Shown: positions 7,694 through 22,155 of the stretch, in pieces
How the letters are laid out: the number at the start of each line of letters is the position of its first letter
Position numbering within the stretch: the first letter of the stretch is position 1
Source of the DNA: a bacterium
GTDB lineage: Bacteria > Patescibacteriota > Minisyncoccia > JBBINA01
Direction of reading: 5' to 3'
Assembly (NCBI GenBank): GCA_037444125.1
Contig: JBBINA010000003.1
Span: 3,167 to 67,166 of the forward strand
DNA length: 64,000 bases
Notes under the pieces: generated by a model
What the model was told of the DNA's origin: nothing
What the model saw: only the letters and a program-made list of their open reading frames with translations
Databases searched by the model: none
Program-made: the position numbers and the translations under genes

Positions 7694-7776
7694 ATAATTT
7701 TTTTATCCAAATAATAATAAGTCAATCTTAATAGAGAGCACTTCATTTGTCAAGCAAAAACTAATTATACAACCAC

Positions 7777-7804: not shown

Positions 7805-7820
7805 GTGTTGACTTTTTTAG

Positions 7821-8189: not shown

Positions 8190-8563
8190 AAAATGATTTT
8201 AAAAATATCTTAAACCAATTGCGAGAACTTCCAGAAGGCACGCGCGTAAAATTAGCGCTTATAATCTGTTTTTTTTCTGTTTTTGGTCTTTTCTCTTTAT
8301 GGGTCAAAAAAACAAGCGATAAATTCGTCCAACTTGACATCAATAAACCCAGCGCTCCTGACAAAATTGAAGTTACCGCTCTTTTAAATAATGTTAAAAG
8401 CGGCATAGCAAATCTAAGATCGATTTTGCAAGAAAATTTTAATCATCTCTTCTCTTTTAAACAACCTCCGTATCAAAACGAAATTTCCAACTCAAACCCT
8501 CTTTCTAAACAACCAAAGCCTCTAAATCCAAATGACTTTCCGCAATTACCCCTCTCGGACTAA
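8186..8563 (+). CDS. hypothetical membrane-anchored protein
   Basis: 125 aa with one hydrophobic helix (LALIICFFSVFGLFSLWV) and a P/N/Q-rich tail. Confidence 0.35.
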   Translation: MKNDFKNILNQLRELPEGTRVKLALIICFFSVFGLFSLWVKKTSDKFVQLDINKPSAPDKIEVTALLNNVKSGIANLRSILQENFNHLFSFKQPPYQNEISNSNPLSKQPKPLNPNDFPQLPLSD

Positions 8564-8621
8564 TGAGAAATTAATATTTATATGACAGAAAAGAAATATT
8601 GCATATTCATAATTTTTTATT

Positions 8622-11072
8622 TTGTTTGTGAATGAATCTAAATTCAAAATTTCACCAATTGAGAATGAGCTAAAAAGTTCTTATTTGGCTTATGCACTTT
8701 CAGTTATAATTTCAAGGGCTATCCCTGATCTAAGAGACGGTTTAAAACCCGTGCAGAGAAGAATTCTCTATGCCATGTATAAAACTGGGCTCCTCCACAA
8801 TAAAAAATTTAGAAAATCAGCCACTGTAGTTGGTTCAGTTATTGGCTCTTACCACCCGCATGGTGATTTGCCGGTATATGAAGCGCTAGTTCGAATGACG
8901 CAAGATTTTTCTCTAAGGTATCCGTTGGTTGAAGGACAAGGTAACTTCGGTTCTATTGATGGAGATCCGCCAGCCGCCCACCGTTACACAGAATGTAGAC
9001 TCGCTAGTATTGGCGAAATTCTTTTACGTAATATTGAAAAAAATACTGTTGAATTTATGCCTAATTTTGATGGTACCAAAAAAGAACCAAAAACTTTACC
9101 CGCACCAATTCCTTTACTGCTTTTAAACGGCGCTTCAGGCATTGCCGTAGGTTTAGCCACATATATCTTTCCCCACAATATCAATGAGGTAATAGATAGT
9201 TTTATTTATTTTATTGACCATAAAGAGTGCGCCATTACTGACTTATTGAAATTTATTCAAGGCCCAGATTTCCCTACCGGCGGCGAAATCGTTTCTTCCA
9301 AGGCTGATTTAATAAACTTTTATCAAAGGGGCCAAGGTAAAGTTACTGTAAGATCAAACTATGAATTAGAAGAAGACAAAAGAATTGTCATAACCTCAAT
9401 TCCTTATCAAGTAAATAAAGCTGAAACCTTAAAAAAAGTGGCTACACTGGTTAAGGATAAAAAGCTAGAGGATATCAAAGAAATTAGAGACGAATCAAAT
9501 AAAAAAGGTATTCGTATAGTTTTCGAACTTAAAAAGGGTTCGTCGCCACAGATTGTCTTGAAAAAATTGTTTTATTACACTGACTTCCAAAAAACTTATT
9601 ATGGCAATTTTGTAGCCTTAAAAAACGGCCTGGAACCAAAAATTCTCAACTTAAAAGAATATTACGAGGAATTTCTTCTTTACCGCATTAAAACATTCAA
9701 AAATGAAATTATTTTTGATTTGGAAGAAGCTAAAAAAAGAGTTGAAATCTTGGAAGGCCTAAAAAAAGCTCTAGATAAAATTGATGTCGTCATCGATCTA
9801 ATCAAAAAATCCCAAGATAGAGAAGATGCCAAGCAAAAACTCATCAATTTTCTCCAAATTAACGCAACTCAAGCTGACGCCATTTTAGAAATGAAACTTG
9901 AAAGATTAGCTAGGTTAGAACAAGAAAAGATATTAGCAGAGCTTAAAGAAAAACTAGAAAAAATAACTGCGCTTCAAGAATTACTTAATGATCCACGCAA
10001 AATAGAAAAAAATATTAAAGACGACATTTTGTCTTTAAAAAATAAGTTTAAAAGCCGCCGTCAAACAAAAATTAAAACAAGCGAAATTGAGTCTTCTGAT
10101 CTTTCTAGTCTATCAGCTTATGAAGAAAATTTAGTCGAAAAAAAACCTAATATCCTAATCATTACGAATAATAACTATATTAAAAGATTAGACGCCTCAT
10201 CAATCAAATCCCAAAAAAGAGGCGGCAGTGGTTTATTCCAAAAAACTAAAGACGGCGTAGAAGTTCGCAAAATTACATATCTTGCTTCTACTGACGAACT
10301 TTATCTTATCTCCAACAAAGGAAGGCTTTTTAAAATAAAAACTTTTTCAATCCCTGAGTCTCAACGTCTCAAAGTTGCTTCTCCTATAAACTCGCTTATT
10401 AAACTTGAACCTGATGAGGAAATTGTTGATTTGTTAGGCATAAATCAAGAAACCATATCTAACCATCAGTACTTTGTTTTTTTAACTAAAAAAGGTTTAA
10501 TTAAAAAAGTCGAAATTTCCAAATTTAAACTTATCAAACAGAACGGCGTAAAAGTTATAAAACTCGAAAATGATGATAGAATTTTAGGGTTTGGCTGCGC
10601 CAAACTAAAATCAGAAGTGCTTATAGCCACGCGAAAAGGCCTAGGTATTCGTTTTGAACTAGACCGAGTCAGGTCTCAAGGAAAAACAAGTTATGGCGTA
10701 AAATCACTTCGCTTTAAAAAACAAGGGGACGAAATAATGGACTTCTTAATAATTAACGATCCTGCGCCTGAATCATTAATATTTATTGCAACTGAAAAAG
10801 GTTATGGTAAAATTATCAGATTAAAAGATATTAGAAAAATAAATCGCGGCGGAAGCGGCGTTATTATCCTAAAAATAAACGCCTCAAAAGGCGAATTAGC
10901 CAAGATTAGCCAAATTTATAATTTAAACAGCGAAGCTATGCTTATAACTAAGAAGGGTGTTGTTTTAAGATTAGCAGCCAAAGAGGTTCCTTTATTGGGG
11001 CGAAACTCGTCGGGCGTTAGAATTATTAGATTAGAAAGTGAAGACTCGCTAAAAAGTTGCGTTGTCTTTTAA
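8622..11072 (+). CDS. gyrA: DNA gyrase subunit A (type IIA topoisomerase A subunit), TTG start
   Basis: 816 aa. N-terminal [33 protein letters not shown], the catalytic-Tyr region [10 protein letters not shown], a GyrA-box-like QKRGGSG, and a C-terminal beta-pinwheel repeat region. Confidence 0.85.
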
Positions 11073-11116
11073 ACATCATAGAATTGTCAGCAATTTAATA
11101 AAACTGTTTTAGATAA

Positions 11117-11659
11117 ATGGATCTTTTTATAAAGCCAGACAAGTTCATAAAAAATCTTGCTTATATTAAACCATCTTTTAATGTAGCTGATTTTGGCTGC
11201 GGATCAGGCTATTTTACTCTAGAAATTGCCAAAAAAATCGGTCAAATTTCTAAAGTTTATGCCATAGACATACTTAAAGAACCTCTGATTAATTTAAAAA
11301 GGAAAGCTGAAATGCTTGGCATATTTAATATTAAATTTGTTCTGTCTGATTTAGAAAAAATTGGCGGCTCTCTTTTGGACAACGAATCTGTCAATTGCGT
11401 ATTCGTTGCTAATATTCTTTTCCAGGTAAAACATAAAAATAATTTAATTAATGAAGCAATAAGAATTATCCAAAAAAACGGCTATTTAATTTTACTTGAA
11501 TACGAAAATTCTTTCGCGCAATTCGGGCCGCCAAAAACACAACGGATACCCAAAAAACTCTTACTGGAACTTCTAAATGACTCAGGTATGAAACTCATCG
11601 AAGACTTCAAACCAAGCGAAAGTCATTATTGCCTTGTTTATGAGAAAACGATACAATGA
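11117..11659 (+). CDS. class I SAM-dependent methyltransferase
   Basis: 180 aa with motif I VADFGCGSGYFTLEIA and downstream motifs typical of the Rossmann-fold MTase family. Confidence 0.6.
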   Translation: MDLFIKPDKFIKNLAYIKPSFNVADFGCGSGYFTLEIAKKIGQISKVYAIDILKEPLINLKRKAEMLGIFNIKFVLSDLEKIGGSLLDNESVNCVFVANILFQVKHKNNLINEAIRIIQKNGYLILLEYENSFAQFGPPKTQRIPKKLLLELLNDSGMKLIEDFKPSESHYCLVYEKTIQ

Positions 11660-12966
11660 TGTTCTTACAACCTAAATCAATACGACTTATTGTCATAATA
11701 TTTATATGCTTATTATTGGTTACTTTTGTTTTGTTATGGTTTAGCTCCAAAAAAAAAGAACCAGTCCTACCAGTACAACTATACTTTTGGGGTGTTTTTG
11801 ATGATTCAGATATTTACGAAGATTTTATAAGAGAGTTTAGATTAAAACATCCTGATGTAAGTATCGAATACAAGAAATTTGACTATCTTGAATATGAAAG
11901 CGAGCTGCTAGATGCACTCAATAAGAAAATTGGTCCTGACATATTTTTTATCCATAACGCTGGCCTTTGGCGGTATATGAACTTTATATCTCCGGCTCCT
12001 CGTAATCTTATATCATCGGATTATGTACAAAAAAATTACGCGCCGGTAGTAACTAAAGATTTTGTAAGGGATAACGAAGTATATTCTTTGCCTTTATATG
12101 TTTCCACGCCAGCTCTTTTTTATAATAAAAAGCTCTTTACTAAAAATTTTATCGTCAGTCCTCCATACACATGGGAGGAATTTATCAAACAAACCGAAGT
12201 TTTAAAAAGAATAGACGAAAATGGCAACATACTTACCGCTGGCGCAGCCATGGGAACGGCTCAGAATATCAACCGGGCAGTGGACATATTGTATCTTTTA
12301 ATGCTGCAGTCTGGAACAATATTTTATGCTGATAATGGACGAGCTGTTTTTGCCCAAGATATTATTATTGATAACAAAACTTTCAATCCGGCTGAACAAG
12401 CGTTAAAGTTTTACACTGATTTTGCTAATCCTAAAAAAAAGGTATACACTTACAATAATACCCTTGATTACTCTATTGACCTTTTTACTAAAGACCGTTT
12501 AGGCATGATGTTTAACTATAACTGGCATATCAGAACTATTAGGACAAAAAACCCCCTGCTTGACTTTGGAATAGCTCCTATTCCACAACCAAAAGTTTCA
12601 AAAAACCAAAAAGCCTTTGCTAACTATTGGTCCTTGGTAGTGAATAAAAATTCAGCGTTTAAAAATATTGCTTGGGAATTCATCAGTTTTTTAAGTCAAC
12701 CGGAAAATCTTAAACGTTACCTTCAAAAAACATCCAATCCCACTCCTCGTAAAGACCTAATTTCTTGGCAAATTGAAAATATGCCGGAACTAGCTGTTTT
12801 TGCTTCGCAAATTATTATTGCCGACTCTTTTCCCCGCTACGATGATGTTGCATACGAAAAAGTTTTTAATAAAATGATAGATGATGTTGTCTATGAATAC
12901 TATAGTCCAAAAACAGCACTACAAAATGCCCAAAACGAAATAAATAAAATAATAATAAGTAGATAA
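11656..12966 (+). CDS. extracellular solute-binding protein (ABC-transporter family-1 SBP-like), membrane anchored
   Basis: 436 aa. N-terminal TM, then LYFWGVFDDSDIYEDFIREFRLKHPDVSIEYKKFDY...GPDIFFIHNAGLW, which is typical of sugar-type SBPs. No permease or ATPase genes are adjacent. Confidence 0.55.
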   Translation: MMFLQPKSIRLIVIIFICLLLVTFVLLWFSSKKKEPVLPVQLYFWGVFDDSDIYEDFIREFRLKHPDVSIEYKKFDYLEYESELLDALNKKIGPDIFFIHNAGLWRYMNFISPAPRNLISSDYVQKNYAPVVTKDFVRDNEVYSLPLYVSTPALFYNKKLFTKNFIVSPPYTWEEFIKQTEVLKRIDENGNILTAGAAMGTAQNINRAVDILYLLMLQSGTIFYADNGRAVFAQDIIIDNKTFNPAEQALKFYTDFANPKKKVYTYNNTLDYSIDLFTKDRLGMMFNYNWHIRTIRTKNPLLDFGIAPIPQPKVSKNQKAFANYWSLVVNKNSAFKNIAWEFISFLSQPENLKRYLQKTSNPTPRKDLISWQIENMPELAVFASQIIIADSFPRYDDVAYEKVFNKMIDDVVYEYYSPKTALQNAQNEINKIIISR

Positions 12967-12981: not shown

Positions 12982-13986
12982 GTGCAAAACAACTATAAAA
13001 TTATAAAAATATCGCAACTCAAAAAGTTTTTATGGTTTTTTTTCTTCTATATTATTATATTGTCACTACCTAAAATAGGTAAAGCGCAACTTAGCTTAAA
13101 CTGCACAGGTAGTTGCATCAAAGGTAGTGATTGTTCAATTTCTTTATCATTTACTTGTCCTGCAGGTATTCCACCTGGCACTAACTGTTTAGTAACAGGC
13201 AATATGCCACCAATCGGATCAAATGCTCAATGTGGGGCAGGCGGAATAGGAAGCGGCACAGTTATGTTCAGCGGCAGCAGTTATCCTGCCTCGGGACAAT
13301 TCGAAGTAAACCTAACATGCCTTGGCAGACATGATAACTGCGCTATCCCTATCCAAAGTACACCAGGCAACAATAATAATAGCATATGTGAACCCGGCGA
13401 ATCTGGCCTACCTGACTGTGACGGCAACTGTGATCCAACAACTGAATGCGATTCATCTGACTGCGCCGACAACGCTCTTTGCAATTCTGGTGGGTGCAGT
13501 GCTGATGGTAATTGTAATACCGGTTGCGCAGGGGCAGGATTTGCTGATCCTGACTGTACAATGCTGCCATCTGACTTACCACCTGCCGGGCCAAGTGGTA
13601 AGATATGTGCCGGGGTGCCCCCACCACCATCAAATCCAAAACTATGCGAAAACATAGTTCGTTGCGGCGGCTGTTGGGAACCACCCTGCAATCTATGTCA
13701 CATCTTTGAAACCATCAGCAATATTATAAATTGCATCTTGAGATTAGCGTTCCTTATAGGCGCAGTCTTAATTGTCTTTGGAGGTATGTTAATTCTTCTT
13801 TCAGGTTTTTATCCAAATCTTCGCCAACAAGGCAAAACAATTTTTACAGCTGTTATTTACGGCCTAATTATTGCTATGTTATCTTATATCATTGTTTTTA
13901 CTATTGTTTCGCTTTTTGCCCAAAATATGGCCGACTTCAGTTTCTCAGCCAGTGGCTTTAGTTTTACCTGCCAAGCTTATCAATAA
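12982..13986 (+). CDS. cysteine-rich secreted protein with a C-terminal two-helix pilin-like module (putative adhesin/minor pilin)
   Basis: 334 aa. Signal peptide, then roughly 220 aa rich in Cys (about 27), Gly and Pro with CxxxC/CxGxC spacing. The C-terminal segment IINCILRLAFLIGAVLIVFGGMLILLSGFYPNLRQQGKTIFTAVIYGLIIAMLSYIIVF aligns with the conserved module of the five downstream small proteins. Local GC is above 50% against a background near 30%. Confidence 0.6.
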   Translation: MQNNYKIIKISQLKKFLWFFFFYIIILSLPKIGKAQLSLNCTGSCIKGSDCSISLSFTCPAGIPPGTNCLVTGNMPPIGSNAQCGAGGIGSGTVMFSGSSYPASGQFEVNLTCLGRHDNCAIPIQSTPGNNNNSICEPGESGLPDCDGNCDPTTECDSSDCADNALCNSGGCSADGNCNTGCAGAGFADPDCTMLPSDLPPAGPSGKICAGVPPPPSNPKLCENIVRCGGCWEPPCNLCHIFETISNIINCILRLAFLIGAVLIVFGGMLILLSGFYPNLRQQGKTIFTAVIYGLIIAMLSYIIVFTIVSLFAQNMADFSFSASGFSFTCQAYQ

Positions 13987-13995: not shown

Positions 13996-14370
13996 TTGAA
14001 GCGAAGAAAAAACATAATCCCAAAACTTATATACTACATAATAGCGTTAATAACAGTTTTGCCTACAACAGCAACAGCGCAACCAACAGACTGTCTTGGC
14101 GGATGTCCCTTACCGCAGTATAGCATTTTTGACAGCATTGAAAGTTTTTTAGATAAAGTAGCCTGGTTTGTTGCTTCAGTGGCTTTTCCGATCGCCGGCA
14201 TTGCTCTAATCTGGGCAGGCATCAAGTTTCTTTTGGCCAGAGGCGACGAAATGCAACTAAGGGAAGCTAAAGAAAATCTCAGATGGGCAATAATAGGGAC
14301 ATTCATTGCTCTAGGTGCCTATGTTTTCGTTAACACTATCAAAAAAGTCATTGAAACCTTTGCGCCGTAA
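13996..14370 (+). CDS. VirB2/TrbC-like pilin-family small secreted protein (paralog 1)
   Basis: 124 aa (TTG start). Signal peptide, a Cys pair (DCLGGCP), hydrophobic helix, loop AGIKFLLARGDEMQLREAKENLRWAIIG, then a second hydrophobic helix. Confidence 0.6.
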   Translation: MKRRKNIIPKLIYYIIALITVLPTTATAQPTDCLGGCPLPQYSIFDSIESFLDKVAWFVASVAFPIAGIALIWAGIKFLLARGDEMQLREAKENLRWAIIGTFIALGAYVFVNTIKKVIETFAP

Positions 14371-14397
14371 ATAAAATTAAATTAAATATTAAATTAA

Positions 14398-14775
14398 ATG
14401 AAAAAACTAATACTGAAATTAACAATAGTAACAACAAGCGTCTTTGTCTTCTTTTTTTGTGTTAGTCCAACGGTTCTTACACAAAATCTCATCACTAATG
14501 TGATTGATATTACATCTCCAACAGGTCAAAGAACCATTATTGAAATCCTTAAAGAGGTTTTAAATTGGATAGTTTTATTAGGTCTACCAATTACTGGAGC
14601 CTTTCTGATTCTTGCCGGCATCAAGTTTTTAACTGCTCACGGAGACGAAAGCCAAATTCGCGATGCCAAACGAATGTTAGTCTATACAATCGTCGGTGGA
14701 GCCATAGTTTTAGCCGCCTTTATTATTGTCAACACAATACGGGAAATTCTAATTAGAAAAGGGCTATTCATTTAA
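14398..14775 (+). CDS. VirB2/TrbC-like pilin-family small secreted protein (paralog 2)
   Basis: 125 aa with the same architecture. Loop is LAGIKFLTAHGDESQIRDAKRMLVYTIVG. Confidence 0.6.
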   Translation: MKKLILKLTIVTTSVFVFFFCVSPTVLTQNLITNVIDITSPTGQRTIIEILKEVLNWIVLLGLPITGAFLILAGIKFLTAHGDESQIRDAKRMLVYTIVGGAIVLAAFIIVNTIREILIRKGLFI

Positions 14776-14798
14776 TAATTTTAGGCTAAAATAATATT

Positions 14799-15206
14799 AT
14801 GCTGAAAAAATTTTTTACAATACTAACGGTAATTTTTCTCTTATTGAATATAATACTCTTTGCCCTGCGTTCTTATGCCTTTGACGCTAATATTTTGGTA
14901 AATCCGCCTAACCAGCTTAATAATATGTATCCCTCCAATCAAATGCAGGCAGGAGAAATTCTTGAATTTATCATTGCCATCAGGAATTTTATTTTATTTC
15001 TCGGTGTGGCACTTTTTATAATTTTTGTGGTTATTGCCGGCATTAAATATATGGGCTCCGGTGGAGACGAGGCTAAAATAGAAGAAGCCAGAAAAAATCT
15101 TATATACGCCATTGTGGGTGGCATTATAACTTTCAGCGCTTTTATCATAATGCAGGCAATTATAAGCTTCATTAAACAATCAATTGATTTTAATTCTCTA
15201 TTCTAA
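14799..15206 (+). CDS. VirB2/TrbC-like pilin-family small secreted protein (paralog 3)
   Basis: 135 aa with the same architecture. Loop is IAGIKYMGSGGDEAKIEEARKNLIYAIVG. Confidence 0.6.
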   Translation: MLKKFFTILTVIFLLLNIILFALRSYAFDANILVNPPNQLNNMYPSNQMQAGEILEFIIAIRNFILFLGVALFIIFVVIAGIKYMGSGGDEAKIEEARKNLIYAIVGGIITFSAFIIMQAIISFIKQSIDFNSLF

Positions 15207-15217
15207 CAAAAACTATA

Positions 15218-15245
15218 TTGACATCTGGTTTACAATCCCTAAAAT
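15218..15245 (+). promoter_or_regulatory. Near-consensus sigma-70 promoter TTGACA-N16-TAAAAT inside the pilin array, upstream of paralog 4
   Basis: -35 TTGACA at 15218-15223 and -10 TAAAAT at 15240-15245. A strong SD AAGGGGGTG sits 8 nt before the ATG at 15332. Confidence 0.45.
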
Positions 15246-15331
15246 AAAAGTTAAGCTAATAAAAAACAGTTAGCAAAGATTAAATATATTAAATAAATAA
15301 AAATATTTAAGAGAAAGGGGGTGAAAAAATA

Positions 15332-15769
15332 ATGATAACCAAACTAAGTTTAAATGCTAAAAAACTTGTGGGTTTAATGTTTTTAGGACTTATGGTAGTA
15401 GGAGCGCTGGCTGGATTTTATGGCAACACGGACGCCCAGTGGAACCCAAACTATATAGGTTGGCCCGGCAATACTCTCAATAACTTTTATCCAACTACTT
15501 CGGTGGACGTGGCAGATATACTAATGATGATTATCGGTATAAGAAACTTTATCTTATTCTTAGGCATAGTGCTTGGTATTATATTCTTAGTATTAGGAGG
15601 GATAAACTATATGAGATCCGGAGGTGATGAGGCTAAAATGGCAACAGCCAGGGCGCAAATTATAGGTGGCATCATTGGTCTCGCTGTGGCAGTAGCCGCA
15701 TTCGTTTTATTGTCCGCCATAGTTGATTTTGTGGAAAAATCAGGGCAAGGAATAACAGAATTACAATAA
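15332..15769 (+). CDS. VirB2/TrbC-like pilin-family small secreted protein (paralog 4), a candidate major subunit
   Basis: 145 aa with the same architecture. Loop is LGGINYMRSGGDEAKMATARAQIIGGIIG. It is the only array member with its own consensus promoter, a strong SD and an immediate terminator. Confidence 0.6.
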   Translation: MITKLSLNAKKLVGLMFLGLMVVGALAGFYGNTDAQWNPNYIGWPGNTLNNFYPTTSVDVADILMMIIGIRNFILFLGIVLGIIFLVLGGINYMRSGGDEAKMATARAQIIGGIIGLAVAVAAFVLLSAIVDFVEKSGQGITELQ

Positions 15770-15788
15770 AAATAATATAAAAATAAAA

Positions 15789-15826
15789 AGAGAGGGTAAG
15801 GGTTTCGCACCTCTCTTTTTATTTTT
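15789..15826 (+). terminator. Rho-independent terminator after pilin paralog 4
   Basis: Hairpin AGAGAGG...CCTCTCT (7-bp stem) followed by TTTTTATTTTTT. Confidence 0.55.
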
Positions 15827-15860
15827 TATAAAATTATAAAAAATAATCTCACTAAATAGC

Positions 15861-15888
15861 TTGAAAACAGAAAATTAAAAAATATAAT
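15861..15888 (+). promoter_or_regulatory. Sigma-70-like promoter TTGAAA-N16-TATAAT ending 6 nt before the start codon of paralog 5 (a leaderless mRNA is predicted)
   Basis: -35 at 15861-15866 and -10 at 15883-15888, with the ATG at 15895. There is no room for a Shine-Dalgarno. Confidence 0.4.
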
Positions 15889-15894
15889 TAAATT

Positions 15895-16257
15895 ATGGAA
15901 AACCTACTGGATTTAATAATAACTAAAATCGTTTTTGCGCAAGCTGGAAACGTCCTCTGCCCCAGCGGCGTAGCTAACGGCCTTGTGCCATGCGATCCCT
16001 GGGCACCAGAAGATATCCTTATTTTCTTTATTTCTGTCAGAGATTTTCTGCTGGCCGTAGGTTTAGTTTTAATAATTATTTTTTTGGTTTTAAGCGGGAT
16101 AAAATTTTTAACTTCCCGAGGCAACGAAAGTCAGGTTGAAGAAGCGCGGAAAATGCTTATTTGGTCAATTGTCGGTGCGATTGTCTTAATCGGTGCTTTT
16201 GTTATCCTGCAAATGATAATTGGGATCCTACGGGATAAAGGGTTCAAAATATTCTAA
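15895..16257 (+). CDS. VirB2/TrbC-like pilin-family small secreted protein (paralog 5)
   Basis: 120 aa. Signal peptide, Cys pair (CPSGVANGLVPCDP), then the module LSGIKFLTSRGNESQVEEARKMLIWSIVG between two hydrophobic helices. Confidence 0.6.
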   Translation: MENLLDLIITKIVFAQAGNVLCPSGVANGLVPCDPWAPEDILIFFISVRDFLLAVGLVLIIIFLVLSGIKFLTSRGNESQVEEARKMLIWSIVGAIVLIGAFVILQMIIGILRDKGFKIF

Positions 16258-16262: not shown

Positions 16263-17888
16263 CTAAAGACGATACACAGTAATTTCTTCAAAATAAGAAT
16301 CTTCGTATACTTTTTTTAATTCCGGACTTTGTCTAATCAAATAATCAAAATTGTAATTTTTTTGAATTTTTTTTAAATTATACCTATCAACGACTAAAAA
16401 CTTAGCGTTAAATTCTTCTTTTAAAAGCTTATACAGGGCGTTATCGCTTTTATCGTAGCAAGCAAGCTTTTCGCCGCATTTTGACGCATATCTATCACAA
16501 ATCGCGCCTAGCCTTATCAAATTATCATAGTAGAAAAACTTTCTCGGATTATAGGGCAATATTGAATTACCATTAAGACCAACGACATAGTAATTATGAG
16601 TATTGTAATAAAAAAAGTAAGGGAAGATATCCCAACGGTCTAAAAAAACAAGATCACCGGGTTCCGAATTGTGCTTTAAAAACATAGCCGCGCCATAAAA
16701 CCGGGACAACGAAAAAGCTTGCCTATCAAAATGTCTTGCTTCACTTAACCATATTAACAAAACAATCGATAAGGTAAACGCCGCTACTATAATTACTGAC
16801 AAATAATACAGGGAGCGTCTTATCAACAACCTTGACTCTCTATTTAACAAACGATTAAAAAGTCTAAAATTTATATTTTCAGGCAAAAAAATATGAAAAC
16901 AAGCCACAAGAAAAAGAAAAATCAAGGGAACGCTATATTCAACAAATCGCTGAGACAAGAAAGTTAAAAACACAAAAAAAACTGAGCTTAGCCATAGAAA
17001 AAACCATTGAGAACACTGGCGATTTTTCTTTTGTTGGATTTCCTGATATAAAAAAAAGAAGCCAAAGCTTAAAATCACCAGATAACCAATCAAAATATAA
17101 AATAGATGCCTATCACTAAAGTAGGGAGAAGTCCACTCAATACTAACAGGAAAAGCAAAATTAATGATTGGGTTGGTATAAATCGCCTGCGAATTTAAAA
17201 TATTATTTGGAAAATATGGATTAAGAATTATACCCCACACTATACCAGAAATAACGCACAAAAACGGCTTTAAATCAAGCGCTTTATCAACAATTAACCG
17301 ACTTAAGAAATATAAAAAAGCAAGTATTACTAAAATTACATAACCATCATAAGCCCAGACAAAGAAAAAGCTGGTCATAAAAAGAAACCAATTTCTTCTA
17401 AGTAAAAGCGCATAAAGCCCGGTTAAAAAAAACAGAACAGCAAAAGCAATAGCTCTAACATTTTGAAACCTACTCATAAAATACGAAGCAAGCGGAAACA
17501 AAAAAAATAGTAAAAAAAATATAAAATGATGATCTCTTCGAATATGTTTAATAATAAGATATAAAATGCCCAAAATAAACCCAACTACAAGGGACTGTAG
17601 AAGTTTAGTGCCGTTTAAATCACCAAAAACTTTAACAAACGGGATAAGCACTACTGACCACAGAAAGTGTATACCCGGAAAATCCTTGCGCCAGCTAGTA
17701 TGATAAAGCCAAGGCATTTCTTTTATAAATCCTTTATCAGCATATATATGAGACATAGCAATGTAAAAATAACTGTCATTATCATTAATTTCATAAATAA
17801 TCTGAAATCCCAAAAACCAAACTAGCGAAACAAGCAGAAAGACAAACAAAAAACCGTGTTTTTTTATTCTTTGGCTTACAAAAGTCAT
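16263..17888 (-). CDS. polytopic membrane protein, putative GT-C-fold glycosyltransferase (ArnT/PMT-like)
   Basis: 541 aa and more than 10 predicted TM helices. Acidic first-loop motif INDNDSYFYIAMSHIY and a shared VWAYDGY motif. It is a paralog of the next gene. Confidence 0.45.
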   Translation of the reverse strand: MTFVSQRIKKHGFLFVFLLVSLVWFLGFQIIYEINDNDSYFYIAMSHIYADKGFIKEMPWLYHTSWRKDFPGIHFLWSVVLIPFVKVFGDLNGTKLLQSLVVGFILGILYLIIKHIRRDHHFIFFLLFFLFPLASYFMSRFQNVRAIAFAVLFFLTGLYALLLRRNWFLFMTSFFFVWAYDGYVILVILAFLYFLSRLIVDKALDLKPFLCVISGIVWGIILNPYFPNNILNSQAIYTNPIINFAFPVSIEWTSPYFSDRHLFYILIGYLVILSFGFFFLYQEIQQKKNRQCSQWFFLWLSSVFFVFLTFLSQRFVEYSVPLIFLFLVACFHIFLPENINFRLFNRLLNRESRLLIRRSLYYLSVIIVAAFTLSIVLLIWLSEARHFDRQAFSLSRFYGAAMFLKHNSEPGDLVFLDRWDIFPYFFYYNTHNYYVVGLNGNSILPYNPRKFFYYDNLIRLGAICDRYASKCGEKLACYDKSDNALYKLLKEEFNAKFLVVDRYNLKKIQKNYNFDYLIRQSPELKKVYEDSYFEEITVYRL

Positions 17889-19444
17889 TAAATTAAAACT
17901 TTAAAAAGATAGACCCCCTTGTTGTAACCAAAACCTTCATATATTTTGCCAAAATAAGGCGAGCGATTCAAAACATTAAATACATTAAATATGGGACGAT
18001 AAATATCTTCACCCCAAAACAAATCAATAAAAACAACCTTAGAACCAAAAATTTCTTTTATTGCTTTGGCGTATTTTTTATCTAGATAATAGTCACAGTA
18101 TTTAATTTCTTTTAAACATCGCTCTTCTTCGCAATAAATCATACCTCTATTGATTATTTCATAAATAAAATCCCTTTGTGGGTCGTATGTTTTCATAAAC
18201 TGCCGACCAAGGCCTGCCACATAATAATTATAATCATTAGCGTAAAATAAAGTCGGAAAAGACGACCAGTTTATATTAAAAATAATTTCTCCTTTAACTG
18301 TATGCTGCTTTAGAAATTGGCTTACGGCTTCGTATCTTGAAATTTTGGGTTGGCTGACAAAATATGAATTTAACTCTTTGAAATTAAATAAAAAACTTAA
18401 AACTAAATATGCGCTCCCAGCAAAAACAAAAACTTTTTTTTGTTTAAGAGGAAAATTCTTTAATTCAACTAATAATTTTTTATAAAAGGAGGCAAAAAAA
18501 ATTAAAGCAAATGGCAAAAGATAATCAATAAAACGCGCAAAAAAGAGATAAAAAACTGAAAAAATCAAGAAAACATATAATTGAAAATTGTTATAAAGCC
18601 TATTATTTTTCTGGCGTAAAAACGCCCAAAATGCCAAAATCAAAGCAAGCAAAAAATAAGCCACAATGCTTTCATGACCCCAGGGCCAAAATTCTATCCT
18701 CGGCGGAAGCCACTCTACACTAAGTGGCATATATAAAGCCTTAATTGGATTAACAATCGTAATATGCATAAACAAAATATTATTCGGAAAAAACGGGTTA
18801 ATAATTAATCCCCATAATATTCCGGATAGGCTATATAGGAAAGGCTTAAAATTCAACTTTCGCCCGCTGATAAAATTATAAATGCTCCAAAGGATCACTA
18901 AAACAAGCGATAAAAAATAACCATCATAAGCCCAGACAAAGAAAAAATTAACCAACCACAGCCAAAGATGTTTTTCTTTTAACAAAAAATAAAAAACCAG
19001 CAATAAGAAAAGCAATGAAAAAGTCAACGGCCTTATATTTAGCATTCGCCACAAGAAAGGTGTAGGCGCAGCATATAATATAAAAACAAAAAAACTTGCC
19101 GTTTTATTATTTAACTTAAAAAGATTTCGAAAAATAAAAAAAAGAGAAAAACTACTTAAAGCAAGAATAAGAGACTGATATATTTTAGCAGCCAAAAGAT
19201 CGTTTTCTATAAACCTGACAAACGGAAACATTAAAAACCAATAAAGAAAATGGTGCCCAGTAAAATTCTCTCGATAAATCGAATAATAGAGCCAAGGCAA
19301 TTTTTGAAAAAACCCGCCTTCACTAAATAATTGGGCAAGTTTAATATAAAAATAATTATCATCAAATGCCGCCAAAACAGGATAAAGACTAAGTAATAAT
19401 ACGCTAAAACTGAAGGAAACGGCAAAAACCCAAAAATAAATCAT
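17888..19444 (-). CDS. polytopic membrane protein, putative GT-C-fold glycosyltransferase (paralog of 16263-17888)
   Basis: 518 aa. First-loop motif AAFDDNYFYIKLAQLF (DD/DE-type as in ArnT/PMT) and the shared VWAYDGY motif. Confidence 0.45.
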   Translation of the reverse strand: MIYFWVFAVSFSFSVLLLSLYPVLAAFDDNYFYIKLAQLFSEGGFFQKLPWLYYSIYRENFTGHHFLYWFLMFPFVRFIENDLLAAKIYQSLILALSSFSLFFIFRNLFKLNNKTASFFVFILYAAPTPFLWRMLNIRPLTFSLLFLLLVFYFLLKEKHLWLWLVNFFFVWAYDGYFLSLVLVILWSIYNFISGRKLNFKPFLYSLSGILWGLIINPFFPNNILFMHITIVNPIKALYMPLSVEWLPPRIEFWPWGHESIVAYFLLALILAFWAFLRQKNNRLYNNFQLYVFLIFSVFYLFFARFIDYLLPFALIFFASFYKKLLVELKNFPLKQKKVFVFAGSAYLVLSFLFNFKELNSYFVSQPKISRYEAVSQFLKQHTVKGEIIFNINWSSFPTLFYANDYNYYVAGLGRQFMKTYDPQRDFIYEIINRGMIYCEEERCLKEIKYCDYYLDKKYAKAIKEIFGSKVVFIDLFWGEDIYRPIFNVFNVLNRSPYFGKIYEGFGYNKGVYLFKVLI

Positions 19445-20127
19445 CTAATTCCCAAAAAGTATAAATATAGTCTAGCTAGATGCATAAGATATCTTAAAAA
19501 TTCCCTTGTGTTTAATTTTGACGAGCCACGCTTACGATTCTTAAATACATACGGCACCTCGTCATATTTTTTATATTTACCCTTGACTAAAATTTCAATT
19601 AATATTTTATAGCCTATTGGGCTCAGTTTGATTCCCTCGATAACCGAGCGTCGTATAACGAAAAATCCAGACATAGGATCAGTACACTTACCAACTAAAG
19701 GTCTTGCCATAATCTCGCCCAGACGAGAAACTAATCTACGATGAAAAGGCCAGTCTTCAACTCTGCCACCAGCCTTTCGCCGTGTACCTACAACTAAATC
19801 GCATCCCTCCTTCTCAATCCTTGCCAAAAATTTGGGCAAAAATTCCGGCGGGTGACTCAAATCGCCATCCATAATGACAATAATCTTTCCTTGTGATTTT
19901 TTGAAACCATAAATAACCGAGTTCGAAAGATCGTATGAAACCTGATAAAATTTAACTGGATATATACGGGTTAACTTTTGGACGATACTTTTTGTGTTAT
20001 CAGCAGAAAACTTATCAATAATCAAAATTTCATAAGACTTTCCTCTTAAGGTCCTATCTAGACGTTTTATTAATTCTTTTAAATTCCTACCTTCATTTAA
20101 GGTTGGTACAACAATTGATAAACTCAT
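19441..20127 (-). CDS. GT2-family glycosyltransferase, polyprenyl-phosphate sugar synthase (Dpm1/GtrB-like)
   Basis: 228 aa: LSIVVPTLNEGRNL...IIDKFSADNT...VIMDGDLSHPPEF, i.e. DxD plus the GT-A fold. No C-terminal TM. Confidence 0.7.
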   Translation of the reverse strand: MSLSIVVPTLNEGRNLKELIKRLDRTLRGKSYEILIIDKFSADNTKSIVQKLTRIYPVKFYQVSYDLSNSVIYGFKKSQGKIIVIMDGDLSHPPEFLPKFLARIEKEGCDLVVGTRRKAGGRVEDWPFHRRLVSRLGEIMARPLVGKCTDPMSGFFVIRRSVIEGIKLSPIGYKILIEILVKGKYKKYDEVPYVFKNRKRGSSKLNTREFLRYLMHLARLYLYFLGIR

Positions 20128-21416
20128 GATGCCGTCCTTAAATTTCCTTTAAAAATATAAGCAATAATTATAATCTGAACTATATAGTAAAAATGGTTAA
20201 GATGGAAATAGCGGGAAAAAAATAAGAAAGTAAAAGTTAGTAAAGCATAAACCATCAAAAAAGCACTTAATGATCTCTCCCTTTGTAAATAAATATAGCC
20301 TACTATAAAAATAGGTAAACCAAACAATAACTGCAATATCCAGAACGGAAAATAAGCAAAAATGTCTTTTACAAAACCAAAATAATATAAATAAGAAGCA
20401 AATCCTATTCCCCTAACTCCACCTAAAGGATATGGCGATAACGAAGTTCCGCTGCCATAATTCCAAATGTCATCAATAAAATCACCTGCCGAAAAAATAA
20501 AGAACGGAAAAATTACCACGCCCGCAACCACTAACGCAGGCATTAGTTCGTATAAACTTCGACGAAATAATAACATTAAGTTTGCTCCACCCTTTTTCCA
20601 ATCTCTAAAACGATACAAAAAATACAATGGCAATAAAAGCCAAGTAGTCTGCTTGCTAGCATACAAAAAACTCATAAAAATAGAGGATAAAATTGTTTTT
20701 CTTCTAATTAAAAAATATAGGAAAAACAGCAATAATGCAATAATTATTACATCATTATATCCATAAATTAAACCGTTTAAAAAAAACGGATTGGCGAATA
20801 AAATCAACCCTACCATCTTTCTCGGGTTATCAATGGTAACATTATTTAAAATTAGCATCGATAATATAAAAGCTATCACATGAATTAATCTAAAATCAAA
20901 CCAACTAAAAAGCCAATAACTCAATAAATAAAATGGAACAGAGATAACTAAAAAAAATGGAAGATATATATAATGATATAGTGCTGGATTTTCTATTATT
21001 TGACCATTAAGCAAAGGTCCTATATAGCCATAGTTCCAACTTGCCAATTCGGTATCTAAATAGTTCTCTCGATATGGATTTTTGTTTTTCAACAAAAAAG
21101 AAACCGCAGCTTCGGTTTGAATTACGCTATCATGGGTATAACGTAATTCTCCCTTTACTCTTAAAAATAAATTTATAACTAGGATTGGTAAAAAAAGAAC
21201 TACTAATATTATCCCCAATAATATTTTTTTAAAAAAATATGAATTTATGTTGAGGCGGTATGAAATAAACACATAACCTAAAAAAAACAACAATGCTAAT
21301 GTTGTTAATCCAAATATTATTAGCTGACCACGCAAACTTCCAAAATATAGGCTCAGATACCTTTCGGTTGTAAAAAAATATGCAAAAAAGTATGCAACTA
21401 GTAGTAATATATCCAT
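20124..21416 (-). CDS. polytopic membrane protein, putative GT-C-like glycosyltransferase (GT87/DUF2029-like)
   Basis: 430 aa, about 11 TM helices, aromatic-rich loops. Family assignment is tentative. Confidence 0.35.
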   Translation of the reverse strand: MDILLLVAYFFAYFFTTERYLSLYFGSLRGQLIIFGLTTLALLFFLGYVFISYRLNINSYFFKKILLGIILVVLFLPILVINLFLRVKGELRYTHDSVIQTEAAVSFLLKNKNPYRENYLDTELASWNYGYIGPLLNGQIIENPALYHYIYLPFFLVISVPFYLLSYWLFSWFDFRLIHVIAFILSMLILNNVTIDNPRKMVGLILFANPFFLNGLIYGYNDVIIIALLLFFLYFLIRRKTILSSIFMSFLYASKQTTWLLLPLYFLYRFRDWKKGGANLMLLFRRSLYELMPALVVAGVVIFPFFIFSAGDFIDDIWNYGSGTSLSPYPLGGVRGIGFASYLYYFGFVKDIFAYFPFWILQLLFGLPIFIVGYIYLQRERSLSAFLMVYALLTFTFLFFSRYFHLNHFYYIVQIIIIAYIFKGNLRTAS

Positions 21417-21426
21417 ATAATATTAC

Positions 21427-22155
21427 TCACTTTAAAAATCTAAACTTTAAAAGCGTATAAACCGCTTTGAAACCCTGATACCACCTTAACTTCTTTCCCT
21501 CCTGAAAACCTCTGGGCAGATAACTAATAGGTACTTCTGTAATTTTTATTCCTTTTCTTAATATTTTTGCTGTAATTTCCTCGCAAAACTCAAAACCGTT
21601 ATGCTCTAAAGTAATATTGGCCAAAACCTTCCTTCTAAATACTTTATAACCGGTACTAATGTCACTTAAATAACTTCGGTATAAGATATTTCCAGCCAAA
21701 GTCACTAAACGTCCTCCATAATAATAAAATGGTGTAAATTTAGGATTCCGAATATTCAATATCCTTGAACCATATACAACTTCACTTTTACCTTCTAAAA
21801 TTGGCTTAAGCAAAAAAGGATAATCTTTAGGATTGTATTCAAGATCGGCATCCTGAATAATCACTATATCACCCGTTGCCATACTCAAACCAGTTCTAAT
21901 CGCTGCCCCCTTACCTTGGTTTTTAAGATGTCTCTTAACCTTAATAATAAAATAAGGATTAATTGGCAAACTGCGAATATATTTATTCAAATAAAAATAG
22001 GTGCCGTCTGTAGAACAATCGTCAATTACGATAATTTCTTTTGCTATATCATAAAGTGAAACCTTTATAACTCTATCTAACACTAATCTAATGGTTTTAC
22101 GCTCGTTAAAACAAGGAATGATGATAGATAACTTAATAAGTTTATTGCTGGACAT
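21427..22155 (-). CDS. GT2-family glycosyltransferase (Dpm1-like)
   Basis: 242 aa: LSIIIPCFNERKTI...VIDDCSTDGT...QDADLEYNPKDYP. Confidence 0.7.
   Translation of the reverse strand: MSSNKLIKLSIIIPCFNERKTIRLVLDRVIKVSLYDIAKEIIVIDDCSTDGTYFYLNKYIRSLPINPYFIIKVKRHLKNQGKGAAIRTGLSMATGDIVIIQDADLEYNPKDYPFLLKPILEGKSEVVYGSRILNIRNPKFTPFYYYGGRLVTLAGNILYRSYLSDISTGYKVFRRKVLANITLEHNGFEFCEEITAKILRKGIKITEVPISYLPRGFQEGKKLRWYQGFKAVYTLLKFRFLK

What the first reader, a model, noticed from the sequence alone, without database searches (positions are those of the whole stretch)
13996..16257. Tandem array of five paralogous VirB2/TrbC-like two-helix pilin genes
Five consecutive same-strand genes of 120-145 aa share one architecture. 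Each has a Sec-type signal peptide and a short variable ectodomain; paralogs 1 and 5 carry a Cys pair there. An amphipathic stretch and a hydrophobic helix follow. Next comes the conserved loop (A/S/G)GI(K/N)(F/Y)(L/M)x(A/S)xG(D/N)E(S/A/M)(Q/K)(I/V/L/M)xxA(R/K)xxL(I/V)(Y/W)(A/S)I(V/I)G, and then a second hydrophobic helix. That is the topology of conjugative or T4SS VirB2/TrbC-type pilins, not of type IV (PilA) prepilins, which have a G/FTLIE motif. The N-terminal variable regions diverge while the C-terminal module is conserved. This suggests diversification of a surface-exposed part, which could mean antigenic or host-range variation in an epibiotic lifestyle. Five paralogs in about 2.3 kb is a large investment for a reduced genome.
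Basis: partly seen in the sequence, partly recalled or inferred. Interest (0 to 1): 0.8.

Follow-up and report, generated by a model that had tools for sequence, protein, structure and literature searches.

The report
Patescibacterial VirB2-like T4SS pilin gene array
Six neighbouring genes (the five reported plus a larger cysteine-rich one upstream) encode small two-helix membrane proteins of the type IV secretion "pilin" family, an arrangement already described in hundreds of ultra-small Patescibacteria genomes, so this is a real but ordinary new example.

Summary
The five ORFs exist as described (124, 125, 135, 145 and 120 aa, + strand). All pass Pfam PF18895 (T4SS_pilin), and paralog 1 also passes PF04956 (TrbC/VirB2). 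A sixth member lies directly upstream (12982-13986, 334 aa, 26 Cys, same C-terminal hairpin). GyrA and pilin relatives place the genome in a poorly sampled Patescibacteria (CPR) lineage.

Such arrays are published. Quinonero-Coronel 2025 report 441 arrays of 2-11 VirB2-like genes in 383 assemblies. An equivalent array is essential in Southlakia epibionticum (Wang 2023).

Its antigenic or host-range variation idea is not:
- Two syntenic relatives show one-to-one orthologs.
- Each paralog's mature N-terminal motif is conserved between orthologs.
- dN/dS is below 1 wherever it is finite.
- Elsewhere, 2-11 modules are fused into single ORFs, which argues for co-assembly.

Added here:
- Three likely transcription units. 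Paralog 4 has its own conserved promoter-like site, the strongest SD of 53 genes and a conserved terminator, so it is the candidate major subunit.
- A gyrA-methyltransferase-SBP-pilin neighbourhood conserved at 44% GyrA identity.
- No virB4 in the 64 kb window.
- Closer profile similarity to an Enterococcus pHTbeta pilin-like protein than to Agrobacterium VirB2.

Pilus formation remains unproven.

The parts
12982..13986 (+). w0: sixth, larger array member (334 aa). It has a signal peptide, a Cys-rich ectodomain (26 Cys) and a C-terminal two-helix pilin module. It is a candidate minor or tip subunit that displays an ectodomain.
   Evidence: PF18895 25.5 bits against a cut-off of 26.6. 24.6 bits against the five-paralog HMM. 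Cys count. The ortholog in L011 is 332 aa; the L015 ortholog is only 179 aa but keeps the membrane-proximal Cys motif. Analogous FN3-like or Ig-like plus pilin-module proteins occupy the same position in L002, L006 and L001.
13996..14370 (+). w1: pilin paralog 1 (124 aa, TTG start). The predicted mature N-terminus is QPTDCLGGC..., which carries a Cys pair.
   Evidence: PF18895 48.6 bits and PF04956 46.5 bits, both above their cut-offs. The AF2 model has pLDDT 80.6 with helices at 8-20, 48-80 and 85-122. The ortholog P0001 is 86% identical.
14398..14775 (+). w2: pilin paralog 2 (125 aa).
   Evidence: PF18895 44.3 bits. Orthologs are present in L011 and L015.
14799..15206 (+). w3: pilin paralog 3 (135 aa). 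It is the last gene of the tightly packed upstream unit, which has gaps of 9, 27 and 23 nt.
   Evidence: PF18895 39.6 bits. Gap lengths.
15218..15245 (+). Promoter-like site TTGACA-16-TAAAAT (11 of 12 matches) upstream of w4.
   Evidence: Best-scoring site in the region. Identical hexamers and spacing occur at the equivalent place in L011, 11240-11267.
15317..15323 (+). Shine-Dalgarno sequence GGGGGTG of w4.
   Evidence: Duplex energy with the anti-SD is -15.3 kcal/mol, the strongest of 53 genes in the window (median -0.5; only 6 of 53 at or below -6). It is conserved as GGAGGTG in L011.
15332..15769 (+). w4: pilin paralog 4 (145 aa). It looks like a stand-alone, probably highly expressed gene and is the candidate major subunit.
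   Evidence: PF18895 27.5 bits against a cut-off of 26.6. It has its own promoter-like site, SD and terminator.
15776..15830 (+). Intrinsic-terminator-like hairpin followed by a T-run, after w4.
   Evidence: Free energy -20.1 kcal/mol, z = -6.3, and 0 of 200 shuffles fold as well. L011 has a hairpin at the same place with a different stem sequence (centroid -24.8 kcal/mol, z = -6.1). The simple terminator scan missed it.
15861..15888 (+). Promoter-like site TTGAAA-16-TATAAT (11 of 12 matches) upstream of w5.
   Evidence: The equivalent site TTGCAA-16-TATAAT is in L011 at 11867-11894.
15895..16257 (+). w5: pilin paralog 5 (120 aa). It has a Cys pair and an atypically short N-terminal leader.
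   Evidence: PF18895 33.9 bits. Leader analysis. The ortholog a5 in L011 keeps LCPSG...LVPCDPW.
11117..12966 (+). Conserved upstream neighbours (context, not pilins): a class I SAM methyltransferase (11117-11659) and a membrane-anchored family-1 solute-binding protein with no transporter genes beside it (11656-12966). The SBP gene ends 15 nt before w0.
   Evidence: Pfam hits. The same order, gyrA-MTase-SBP-pilin-module genes, occurs in L011, L015, L002 and L006. The SBP is 40% identical to its L006 counterpart, where GyrA is 44% identical.

Best explanation
The locus is a six-gene array of VirB2-like (Pfam T4SS_pilin) subunits belonging to the chromosomal type IV secretion system typical of Patescibacteria.

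**Shown.**
- Family membership of all five reported genes.
- A signal-peptide-like leader in w0-w4.
- A helical-hairpin fold, with a charged turn (GIKF..GDE..AK) between two hydrophobic helices.
- Ancient paralogy with one-to-one orthologs in related genomes.
- Promoter, SD and terminator signals, conserved in L011, that split the array into three units: [..SBP-w0-w1-w2-w3], [w4] and [w5].

**Inferred.**
- The proteins are exported by Sec, cleaved by signal peptidase and held as membrane hairpins with both termini outside.
- A VirB4-type T4SS encoded elsewhere in the genome extracts them and polymerises them into a pilus-like filament or conduit that contacts the host cell.
- The paralogs are non-redundant parts of one heteromeric structure and not alternative variants.
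- w4 is the abundant major subunit.
- w0-w3 and w5 are lower-abundance subunits. w0 would present a Cys-rich ectodomain, for example at a tip or base.
For: **Family and fold.**
- All five genes pass PF18895, and w1 also passes PF04956.
- The family is very large: 58,648 representatives at E <= 1e-3. Named members are almost all Patescibacteria, and some are annotated 'pilin'.
- The AF2 model of w1 is a hairpin with pLDDT of about 90-95 over residues 51-120, by 10-residue blocks.

**Literature.**
- 441 VirB2 arrays of 2-11 genes were found in 383 Patescibacteria assemblies, with mean identity of 25% within an array (PMC12102498).
- The pilin array inside the T4SS cluster of S. epibionticum is essential (PMC10633639; PMC12857230).

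**Non-redundant paralogs.**
- One-to-one orthologs exist, and each paralog's N-terminal motif is conserved between them.
- dN is 0.27-0.51 in the N-terminal part against 0.09-0.20 in the C-terminal module. dN/dS is 0.03-0.36 wherever it is finite.
- Natural single ORFs carry 2-11 concatenated modules. P0122 was verified on its contig L017.

**Expression architecture.**
Against: - No virB4, virB6, virB3 or trsD gene lies within the window, which reaches 14 kb upstream and 48 kb downstream of the array. L011 also has none within 10 kb. Linkage to a T4SS therefore rests on family membership and on other genomes.
- No T4SS pilus has been seen in any Patescibacterium, according to the reviews read.
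- Profile comparison with Agrobacterium VirB2 itself is insignificant (probability 1.9%).
- The role of w4 as major subunit rests on sequence signals only, and w4 is the weakest Pfam hit.
- The leader of w5 is atypical.
Confidence: 0.6

Rival explanations
1. The proteins are T4SS components that never form an extended pilus. They would stay in or just above the membrane as a channel-lining or stalk element. This is presumed to be the case for the single-copy pilin-like proteins of monoderm conjugative elements.
For: - The closest non-CPR similarities are to monoderm elements.
- hhalign probability is 75.8% (E 2.3e-5) to the 'TrbC/VirB2 family protein' in the tra region of Enterococcus faecium pHTbeta.
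- All five paralogs give sub-threshold hits (14.8-24.8 bits, cut-off 40) to NCBIfam NF045849, the Mycoplasma ICE pilin-like conjugal transfer protein.
- The Patescibacteria VirB4 clade is sister to MPF-FATA monoderm systems (PMC12102498).
- No pilus has been observed.
Against: - Six paralogs, and fusions of up to 11 modules, are hard to place in a short fixed channel.
- A stand-alone gene with strong promoter-like, SD and terminator signals (w4) is what a high-copy polymer subunit would look like.
- Large ectodomains fused to the module (w0; the FN3-like and Ig-like versions) suggest surface display.
Confidence: 0.22
2. The paralogs are alternative major pilins whose exposed N-termini diversify for antigenic or host-range variation, with one or a few expressed at a time.
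For: - Mature N-terminal segments are 14-36% identical between paralogs in nine of ten pairs (the tenth aligns only 4 residues). C-terminal modules are 23-48% identical.
- Two internal promoter-like sites and a terminator would allow differential expression of w4 and w5.
- The same idea is raised as a possibility in PMC12102498.
Against: - Each paralog has a one-to-one ortholog with a conserved N-terminal motif in genomes whose GyrA is 82% and 64% identical.
- There is no gain or loss among the members held on these contigs: all six in L011, and the first four in L015, whose contig ends there.
- dN/dS is below 0.4 wherever it is measurable.
- w0-w3 are separated by only 9-27 nt, with no promoter-like site above background between them.
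- Covalent fusions of modules in other genomes enforce co-expression.
Confidence: 0.1
3. The array works independently of any T4SS. The two-helix proteins would be envelope components that act with the conserved adjacent solute-binding protein, the methyltransferase and the downstream glycosyltransferase cluster, for example in a nutrient-capture or surface-layer structure.
For: - The gyrA-MTase-SBP-pilin-module order is conserved in genomes with only 44% GyrA identity.
- No virB4 lies nearby.
- A run of 11 glycosyltransferase or large membrane-protein genes lies immediately downstream.
Against: - In 1,135 of 1,948 assemblies the pilin genes lie near virB4. In S. epibionticum they lie inside the T4SS cluster.
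- Conserved order next to gyrA may only reflect an ancestral origin-proximal arrangement (PMC12102498 section 14).
Confidence: 0.06
4. The proteins belong to an unrelated two-TM family (holin, bacteriocin immunity protein, ATP synthase c-like), and the Pfam match reflects only hydrophobic composition.
For: - Weak composition-type hits occur, including tetraspanin, DUF350 and cytochrome bd names given by some sources.
- The best Foldseek hit is ATP synthase subunit c, with E = 0.93.
Against: - The Pfam hits cover the full 71-position model, include the conserved charged turn, and exceed the curated cut-off in all five genes.
- No PHROGs holin hit was found.
- No other family exceeds its cut-off.
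Confidence: 0.02

Closest known systems
VirB2-like pilin arrays of Patescibacteria (Quinonero-Coronel et al. 2025, PMC12102498; the essential pilin array of Southlakia epibionticum ML1, Wang et al. 2023, PMC10633639; the array of signal-peptide proteins in TM7x and other Saccharibacteria, bioRxiv 10.1101/258137)
   Same: - Tandem same-strand PF18895/PF04956 genes, with 2-11 per array.
- Low identity within an array: 25% mean in the published set, and 18-34% to paralog 1 over whole proteins here.
- N-terminal signal peptides.
- A Patescibacteria chromosome.
- Chromosomal rather than plasmid context.
   Different: - Here the array is not near virB4, at least 14 kb upstream and 48 kb downstream. 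It sits behind gyrA-MTase-SBP.
- It comes from a lineage whose GyrA has only three relatives above 50% identity.
- It includes a 334-aa Cys-rich member.
- The transcription-unit structure and ortholog-level conservation described here are not in the papers I read.
Canonical conjugative or T4SS pilins of diderms: Agrobacterium VirB2, RP4 TrbC, F TraA (Pfam PF04956)
   Same: - A signal peptide followed by a two-helix hydrophobic hairpin with a short polar turn.
- Paralog 1 passes the PF04956 cut-off.
- The alignment to VirB2 is in register at ...GISWMFGRAS against GIKWMTSGGD.
   Different: - Only paralog 1 passes PF04956. hhalign to VirB2 gives a probability of 1.9%.
- The organism is a monoderm.
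- There are multiple paralogs instead of one major pilin.
- No adjacent virB operon and no VirB5 were found in the window.
- Cyclisation or acetylation is unknown.
Pilin-like proteins of monoderm conjugative elements: the 'TrbC/VirB2 family protein' of Enterococcus faecium pHTbeta (WP_002311852) and NCBIfam NF045849, the Mbov_0395 family of Mycoplasma ICEs
   Same: - The same roughly 70-residue two-helix module.
- hhalign probability of 75.8% (E 2.3e-5) to the pHTbeta protein.
- All five paralogs hit NF045849 at 14.8-24.8 bits.
- Monoderm envelope.
   Different: - Those proteins are single-copy, about 80-90 aa, plasmid- or ICE-borne, and sit inside tra operons.
- The scores here are below the NCBIfam cut-off of 40, so this is a resemblance and not membership.
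Tandem virB2 paralogs of intracellular pathogens (Bartonella, Anaplasma phagocytophilum)
   Same: Several divergent virB2 copies in tandem. They are cited as the precedent for variation in PMC12102498.
   Different: Those are interpreted as immune-evasion variants in animal hosts. Here the paralogs are conserved one-to-one between genomes under purifying selection.

Membership tests
Pfam PF18895 T4SS_pilin | Score at or above the curated gathering cut-off (26.6 bits) over most of the 71-position model. | tested here: met
   Scores are 48.6, 44.3, 39.6, 27.5 and 33.9 bits for paralogs 1-5, and the matches run from model positions 2-12 to positions 70-71. w0 scores 25.5 bits, just below the cut-off.
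Pfam PF04956 TrbC/VirB2 pilin | Score at or above the gathering cut-off (27.9 bits). | tested here: inconclusive
   Met by paralog 1 (46.5 bits, model positions 2-98). Not met by paralogs 2, 3 and 5 (20.5, 17.2 and 15.3 bits). Paralog 4 gives no hit.
VirB2/TrbC-type T4SS pilin (functional class) | A cleavable Sec signal peptide followed by two hydrophobic helices joined by a short polar loop. | tested here: met
   Hydropathy and leader heuristics are clear for w0-w4, and the AF2 model shows the hairpin. The leader of w5 is atypical. Cleavage itself is not testable here.
VirB2/TrbC-type T4SS pilin (functional class) | Encoded with, or dependent on, a VirB4-family T4SS. | tested here: not met
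   No VirB4, VirB6 or VirB3 gene lies in the 64 kb window. Only a soluble TraD/VirD4-like ATPase is present, at 37488-39077. The rest of the genome was not available, so absence from the genome is not shown.
VirB2/TrbC-type T4SS pilin (functional class) | Polymerises, with phospholipid, into an extracellular helical filament. | not testable with these tools
   This needs cryo-EM, cryo-ET or biochemistry. The fold searches are non-specific.
Patescibacteria VirB2 array (as defined in PMC12102498) | Two or more pilin genes in tandem, or separated by one non-pilin gene, in a Patescibacteria genome, with low identity within the array. | tested here: met
   Six adjacent members are present. Identities to paralog 1 over whole proteins are 19-34%. 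C-terminal modules are 23-48% identical between paralogs. CPR affiliation is inferred from GyrA and pilin relatives.
Type IV pilin (PilA, class III signal peptide) | A G|F/M-T-L-I/L-E prepilin peptidase motif at the N-terminus and a single N-terminal hydrophobic helix. | tested here: not met
   The regex is absent from all six proteins. There is no Pfam N_methyl or pilin hit. Each protein has two C-terminal TM helices instead.
Phage holins and other unrelated two-TM families | A significant profile match to a holin or immunity family. | tested here: not met
   PHROGs gave no hit below E = 0.03 and none to a holin. All other Pfam hits are below their cut-offs.

The most novel reading that the evidence does not exclude
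The paralogs are obligate partners in one heteromeric filament or conduit, with each paralog in a distinct, conserved position. The evidence is one-to-one orthology and natural 'polypilin' ORFs that carry 2-11 fused modules. The module would have been inherited with the monoderm MPF-FATA-type T4SS and not co-opted from diderms, because the closest outside relatives are Enterococcus and Mycoplasma pilin-like proteins. Its deeply conserved linkage to a solute-binding protein with no adjacent transporter genes, and to a methyltransferase, would mean the apparatus is an import or nutrient-capture device and not an exporter.
Probability: 0.2. Interest if true: 0.65.

Novelty: new member of a known kind. 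Interest (0 to 1): 0.3.

Why it matters
**Relevance.** The Patescibacteria T4SS is essential for epibiotic growth in the one species tested, and its function is unknown. The pilin arrays are its most unusual feature, because they would imply a pilus on a monoderm T4SS.

**What this locus changes.** It does not change that picture. It does give three usable constraints:
- The paralogs are ancient and individually conserved. That argues against antigenic variation and for distinct structural roles.
- One paralog (w4) carries the expression signals expected of a major subunit. That gives a concrete target for proteomics or imaging.
- Multi-module fusions, and the conserved gyrA-MTase-SBP linkage, are testable leads on how the subunits assemble and what they work with.

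Tried and rejected
**Leads that gave nothing.**
- An exact-sequence contig look-up for w1, w2 and P0003 found nothing. The source record name was therefore never obtained. Only Logan run SRR11582170 and a 76,974-nt NCBI contig are known.
- The six-sequence alignment A1 was too divergent for the locus scan. A four-sequence alignment worked.
- A profile search of PDB sequences gave only a chance hit to OST3, with E = 2.4.
- AF2 on the six-module fusion P0122 without an alignment gave pLDDT 56.5 and pTM 0.31. Six hairpins are visible but their packing is unreliable.
- A dN/dS test for positive selection failed for most regions because dS is saturated. Only purifying values were obtained.

**Ideas rejected.**
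- I considered that five paralogs might match the five-start or pentameric layers of conjugative pili. I rejected this as unsupported, because arrays and fusions contain anything from 2 to 11 modules with no preference for five.
- I looked for T4SS core genes among all ORFs of the window that lack Pfam hits and found none.
- PHROGs gave no holin hit.


Full report
**1. Observation**

- Each has an N-terminal hydrophobic segment and two strongly hydrophobic 19-residue windows.
- The Cys pairs in paralogs 1 and 5 are real.
- No type IV prepilin motif is present.

Three corrections apply.

- The preceding ORF 12982-13986 (w0, 334 aa, 26 Cys) ends in the same two-helix module, so it is a sixth member. 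It scores 25.5 bits on PF18895 against a cut-off of 26.6 and 24.6 bits on an HMM built from the five paralogs. That HMM finds nothing else in the window.
- Paralog 5's leader (MENLLDLIITKIVFAQA) is short and net negative, with no clean hydrophobic core. Its status as a signal peptide is uncertain.
- The variable mature N-terminal segments are only 15-24 residues long.

**2. Family**

All five proteins exceed the Pfam gathering cut-off for PF18895 (T4SS_pilin): 48.6, 44.3, 39.6, 27.5 and 33.9 bits. Paralog 1 also passes PF04956 (TrbC/VirB2) at 46.5 bits.

- PHROGs gave no holin hit or any other significant hit.
- NCBIfam gave only sub-threshold hits. The consistent one is NF045849, the pilin-like conjugal transfer protein of Mycoplasma ICEs, at 14.8-24.8 bits against a cut-off of 40, for all five paralogs.
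- An AF2 model of paralog 1, built with 96 homologues, is a helical hairpin: helices at 48-80 and 85-122, with 10-residue-block pLDDT of about 90-95 over residues 51-120.

Membership therefore rests on sequence profiles and not on structure.

**3. Organism**

- GyrA of the window has an identical entry on a 76,974-nt contig (NCBI and Logan).
- Only three relatives exceed 50% identity, at 82%, 64% and 57%. Below that, identity drops to 48% or less, to proteins named Paceibacterota, Parcubacteria, Niyogibacteria and Falkowbacteria.
- Pilin relatives in the species-representative genome set are nearly all CPR MAGs: Magasanikbacteria, Saccharibacteria, Dojkabacteria, WWE3, Daviesbacteria and the Parcubacteria group.

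The window therefore comes from a poorly sampled Patescibacteria lineage. This is an inference, because the record title was not retrievable.

**4. Already known**

- Quinonero-Coronel et al. 2025 (PMC12102498) searched 3,035 Patescibacteria genomes with PF04956 and PF18895. They report VirB2-like pilins in 1,948 assemblies, near virB4 in 1,135 of them.
- They also report 441 arrays of 2-11 pilin genes in 383 assemblies, with mean identity of 25% and a maximum of 54% within an array. They propose host-strain adaptation by analogy with Bartonella and Anaplasma.
- Wang et al. 2023 (PMC10633639) showed that the pilin series within the T4SS cluster of Southlakia epibionticum is essential.
- A 2018 preprint had already noted arrays of 4-6 small signal-peptide proteins related to VirB2 in Saccharibacteria.
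- The family is very large. A profile of the window's paralogs retrieves 58,648 50%-identity cluster representatives at E <= 1e-3.
- PF18895 is reported as the dominant domain of freshwater-specific structure clusters.

**5. What the surroundings and relatives add**

*(a) Orthology.*

- Two Logan contigs are syntenic with the window. The shared order is RNase Y, ClpP, trigger factor, NusA, UPF0102, an unknown gene, GyrA, a methyltransferase, an SBP, the large pilin-module protein, the small pilins and then large membrane proteins with GT2 enzymes.
- The paralogs pair one-to-one between genomes. Each keeps its own mature N-terminal motif:
  - paralog 1: QPTDCLGGCPLPQYSIFDSIE against QPTNCLSGCQVPKYSIFDSIE;
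  - paralog 4: WNPNYIGWPGNTLNNFYPT against WDPNYLGWPGNALNNFYPT;
  - paralog 5: LCPSGVANGLVPCDPWAPEDIL against LCPSGPASGLVPCDPWSPEDIL.
- dN is 0.27-0.51 in the N-terminal parts, much of which is signal peptide, against 0.09-0.20 in the C-terminal modules.
- dS is saturated. Wherever dN/dS is finite it is 0.03-0.36.
- This pattern indicates old, individually constrained subunits and not rapidly varying cassettes.

*(b) Fusions.*

- The highest-scoring family members in the 1.84-billion-protein library are single ORFs with 2-11 concatenated modules behind one signal peptide. Examples are P0122 and P0123 (six modules), P0125 (five) and P0206 (eleven).
- P0122 translates correctly on its contig and lies inside an array of single-module genes.
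- Each module has two TM helices, so concatenation preserves topology.
- Such fusions enforce co-expression. By the usual gene-fusion argument they indicate that different modules assemble together.
- I found no mention of them in PMC12102498.

*(c) Ectodomain-bearing members.*

- w0 has counterparts at the same position in distant loci. These are FN3-like plus pilin-module proteins in L002 and L006.
- L001 has an Ig-like 681-aa protein and a 2,478-aa pilin-module ORF.
- The L015 ortholog of w0 is only 179 aa but keeps the membrane-proximal Cys motif. The distal Cys-rich domain is therefore the part that really varies.

*(d) Expression signals.*

- w0-w3 are separated by 9, 27 and 23 nt and follow the SBP gene by 15 nt.
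- The two best promoter-like sites in the region lie upstream of w4 (TTGACA-16-TAAAAT) and of w5 (TTGAAA-16-TATAAT). The equivalent sites are again the best + strand matches in L011.
- w4 has the strongest Shine-Dalgarno sequence of 53 genes, in a genome where only 6 of 53 genes have one.
- w4 is followed by a hairpin plus T-run (-20.1 kcal/mol, z = -6.3). The L011 counterpart has a different stem sequence.
- I infer three transcription units and propose w4 as the major subunit.

*(e) Neighbourhood.*

- The order gyrA-methyltransferase-SBP-pilin-module genes recurs in L002 and L006. There GyrA is only 44% identical and the SBP 40% identical to the window's proteins.
- No VirB4, VirB6 or VirB3 gene lies in the window or in L011.
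- The only T4SS-related gene is a soluble TraD/VirD4-like ATPase with a C-terminal zinc ribbon, at 37488-39077. That class is reported as widespread, usually unlinked to virB4, and non-essential in S. epibionticum.

*(f) Outside relatives.*

- tblastn against plasmids hits only the 'TrbC/VirB2 family protein' in the tra region of Enterococcus pHTbeta-type plasmids, at E = 0.1.
- hhalign of the 96-sequence CPR profile gives a probability of 75.8% (E 2.3e-5) to that protein.
- The same profile gives only 1.9% to Agrobacterium VirB2, although that alignment is in register.
- Together with the NF045849 hits, this suggests that the module may have come with the monoderm-type T4SS. The published suggestion is co-option from diderm systems. 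This is a lead and not a demonstration.

**6. Mechanism**

*Most likely (confidence about 0.6).* The proteins are Sec-exported, signal-peptidase-processed hairpin subunits held in the membrane. A T4SS encoded elsewhere polymerises them into a heteromeric pilus-like filament or conduit towards the host cell. w4 would be the major subunit and the others specialised subunits, with w0 carrying an ectodomain.

- Shown: family membership, fold, paralog conservation and expression signals.
- Inferred: export and cleavage, dependence on VirB4, polymerisation and subunit roles.

*Rivals.*

- A non-pilus, membrane-proximal T4SS element, as presumed for the monoderm homologues (0.22).
- A T4SS-independent envelope structure linked to the SBP and glycosyltransferase genes (0.06).
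- An unrelated two-TM family (0.02).

**7. Verdict**

The phenomenon is published and common in Patescibacteria, so this is a new member of a known kind. Interest is low to moderate (0.3). It rests mainly on the side observations: ortholog-level conservation, fused poly-pilins, the stand-alone candidate major subunit, the conserved gyrA-MTase-SBP linkage and the affinity to monoderm pilin-like proteins.

Noticed in passing
P0122, P0123, P0125, P0206; L017:1777-3435: Single ORFs carry 2-11 concatenated T4SS_pilin modules behind one signal peptide ('polypilins'). They dominate the top of the family search. P0122 (six modules) translates correctly on its contig and lies inside an array of single-module genes. 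I found no mention of them in the 2025 survey paper.
   Followed up: partly
window 12982-13986; L015:9477-10016; L002:4852-6006; L006:5384-6454; L001:9950-19422: Larger proteins fuse an ectodomain to the pilin module and sit at the head of the arrays. The ectodomain is a 26-Cys domain here, FN3-like in L002 and L006, and Ig-like Big_5 in L001, which also has a 2,478-aa ORF. The L015 ortholog of w0 lacks the distal Cys-rich part (179 aa) but keeps the CxxxxxCGG...CNLC motif next to the first helix.
   Followed up: partly
window 8622-12966; L002:72-3908; L006:175-4542; L011:4672-8980; L015:5112-9463: The gene order gyrA, small class I SAM methyltransferase, membrane-anchored family-1 solute-binding protein, then pilin-module genes is conserved between genomes with only 44% GyrA identity. 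No ABC permease or ATPase gene lies next to the SBP in the window.
   Followed up: partly
L016 (NC_007594.1 pHTbeta) 8968-9243; NCBIfam NF045849: The nearest non-CPR similarity is to pilin-like proteins of monoderm conjugative elements: Enterococcus pHTbeta (hhalign probability 75.8%) and the Mycoplasma ICE Mbov_0395 family. It is not to Agrobacterium VirB2 (probability 1.9%). This sits awkwardly with the published statement that Gram-positive T4SS classes lack virB2 homologues.
   Followed up: partly
window 16263-30593 (- strand): Immediately downstream of the array lies a run of 11 genes. It alternates GT2 glycosyltransferases with large polytopic membrane proteins (GT87-like, DUF2079 and several with no Pfam hit; YfhO in L011). 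This looks like a surface-glycan or protein-glycosylation cluster. Any link to the pilins is untested.
   Followed up: no
window 36047-39077: A gene pair encodes a 469-aa protein with one N-terminal TM helix and no Pfam hit, followed by a soluble 529-aa TraD/VirD4/HerA-like ATPase ending in a CxxC-x17-CxxC zinc ribbon. It is the only T4SS-related ATPase in the window.
   Followed up: partly
window 45178-46683 (-): A 501-aa protein has an SLT_2 lytic transglycosylase domain and could be a VirB1-like cell-wall opener. It lies 29 kb from the array.
   Followed up: no
whole window: The genome is almost free of Shine-Dalgarno sequences. Only 6 of 53 genes have an anti-SD duplex at or below -6 kcal/mol (median -0.5). 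The strongest is pilin paralog 4.
   Followed up: yes
window 43413-44422: A release-factor gene of only 254 aa lies directly after rpmE (L31). Its PCRF match starts at model position 91, so it appears to lack the usual N-terminal domain.
   Followed up: no
L009 (CAZTIC010000033.1) 1241-4349 and 7376-12405: A seven-gene pilin array lies on a contig binned as 'uncultured Gammaproteobacteria', next to HlyD and AcrB efflux genes. This could be mis-binning or a non-CPR occurrence of the array.
   Followed up: no
window 61279-63042 (-): A 587-aa protein with PKD and lamin-tail domains is a likely surface or adhesin protein.
   Followed up: no
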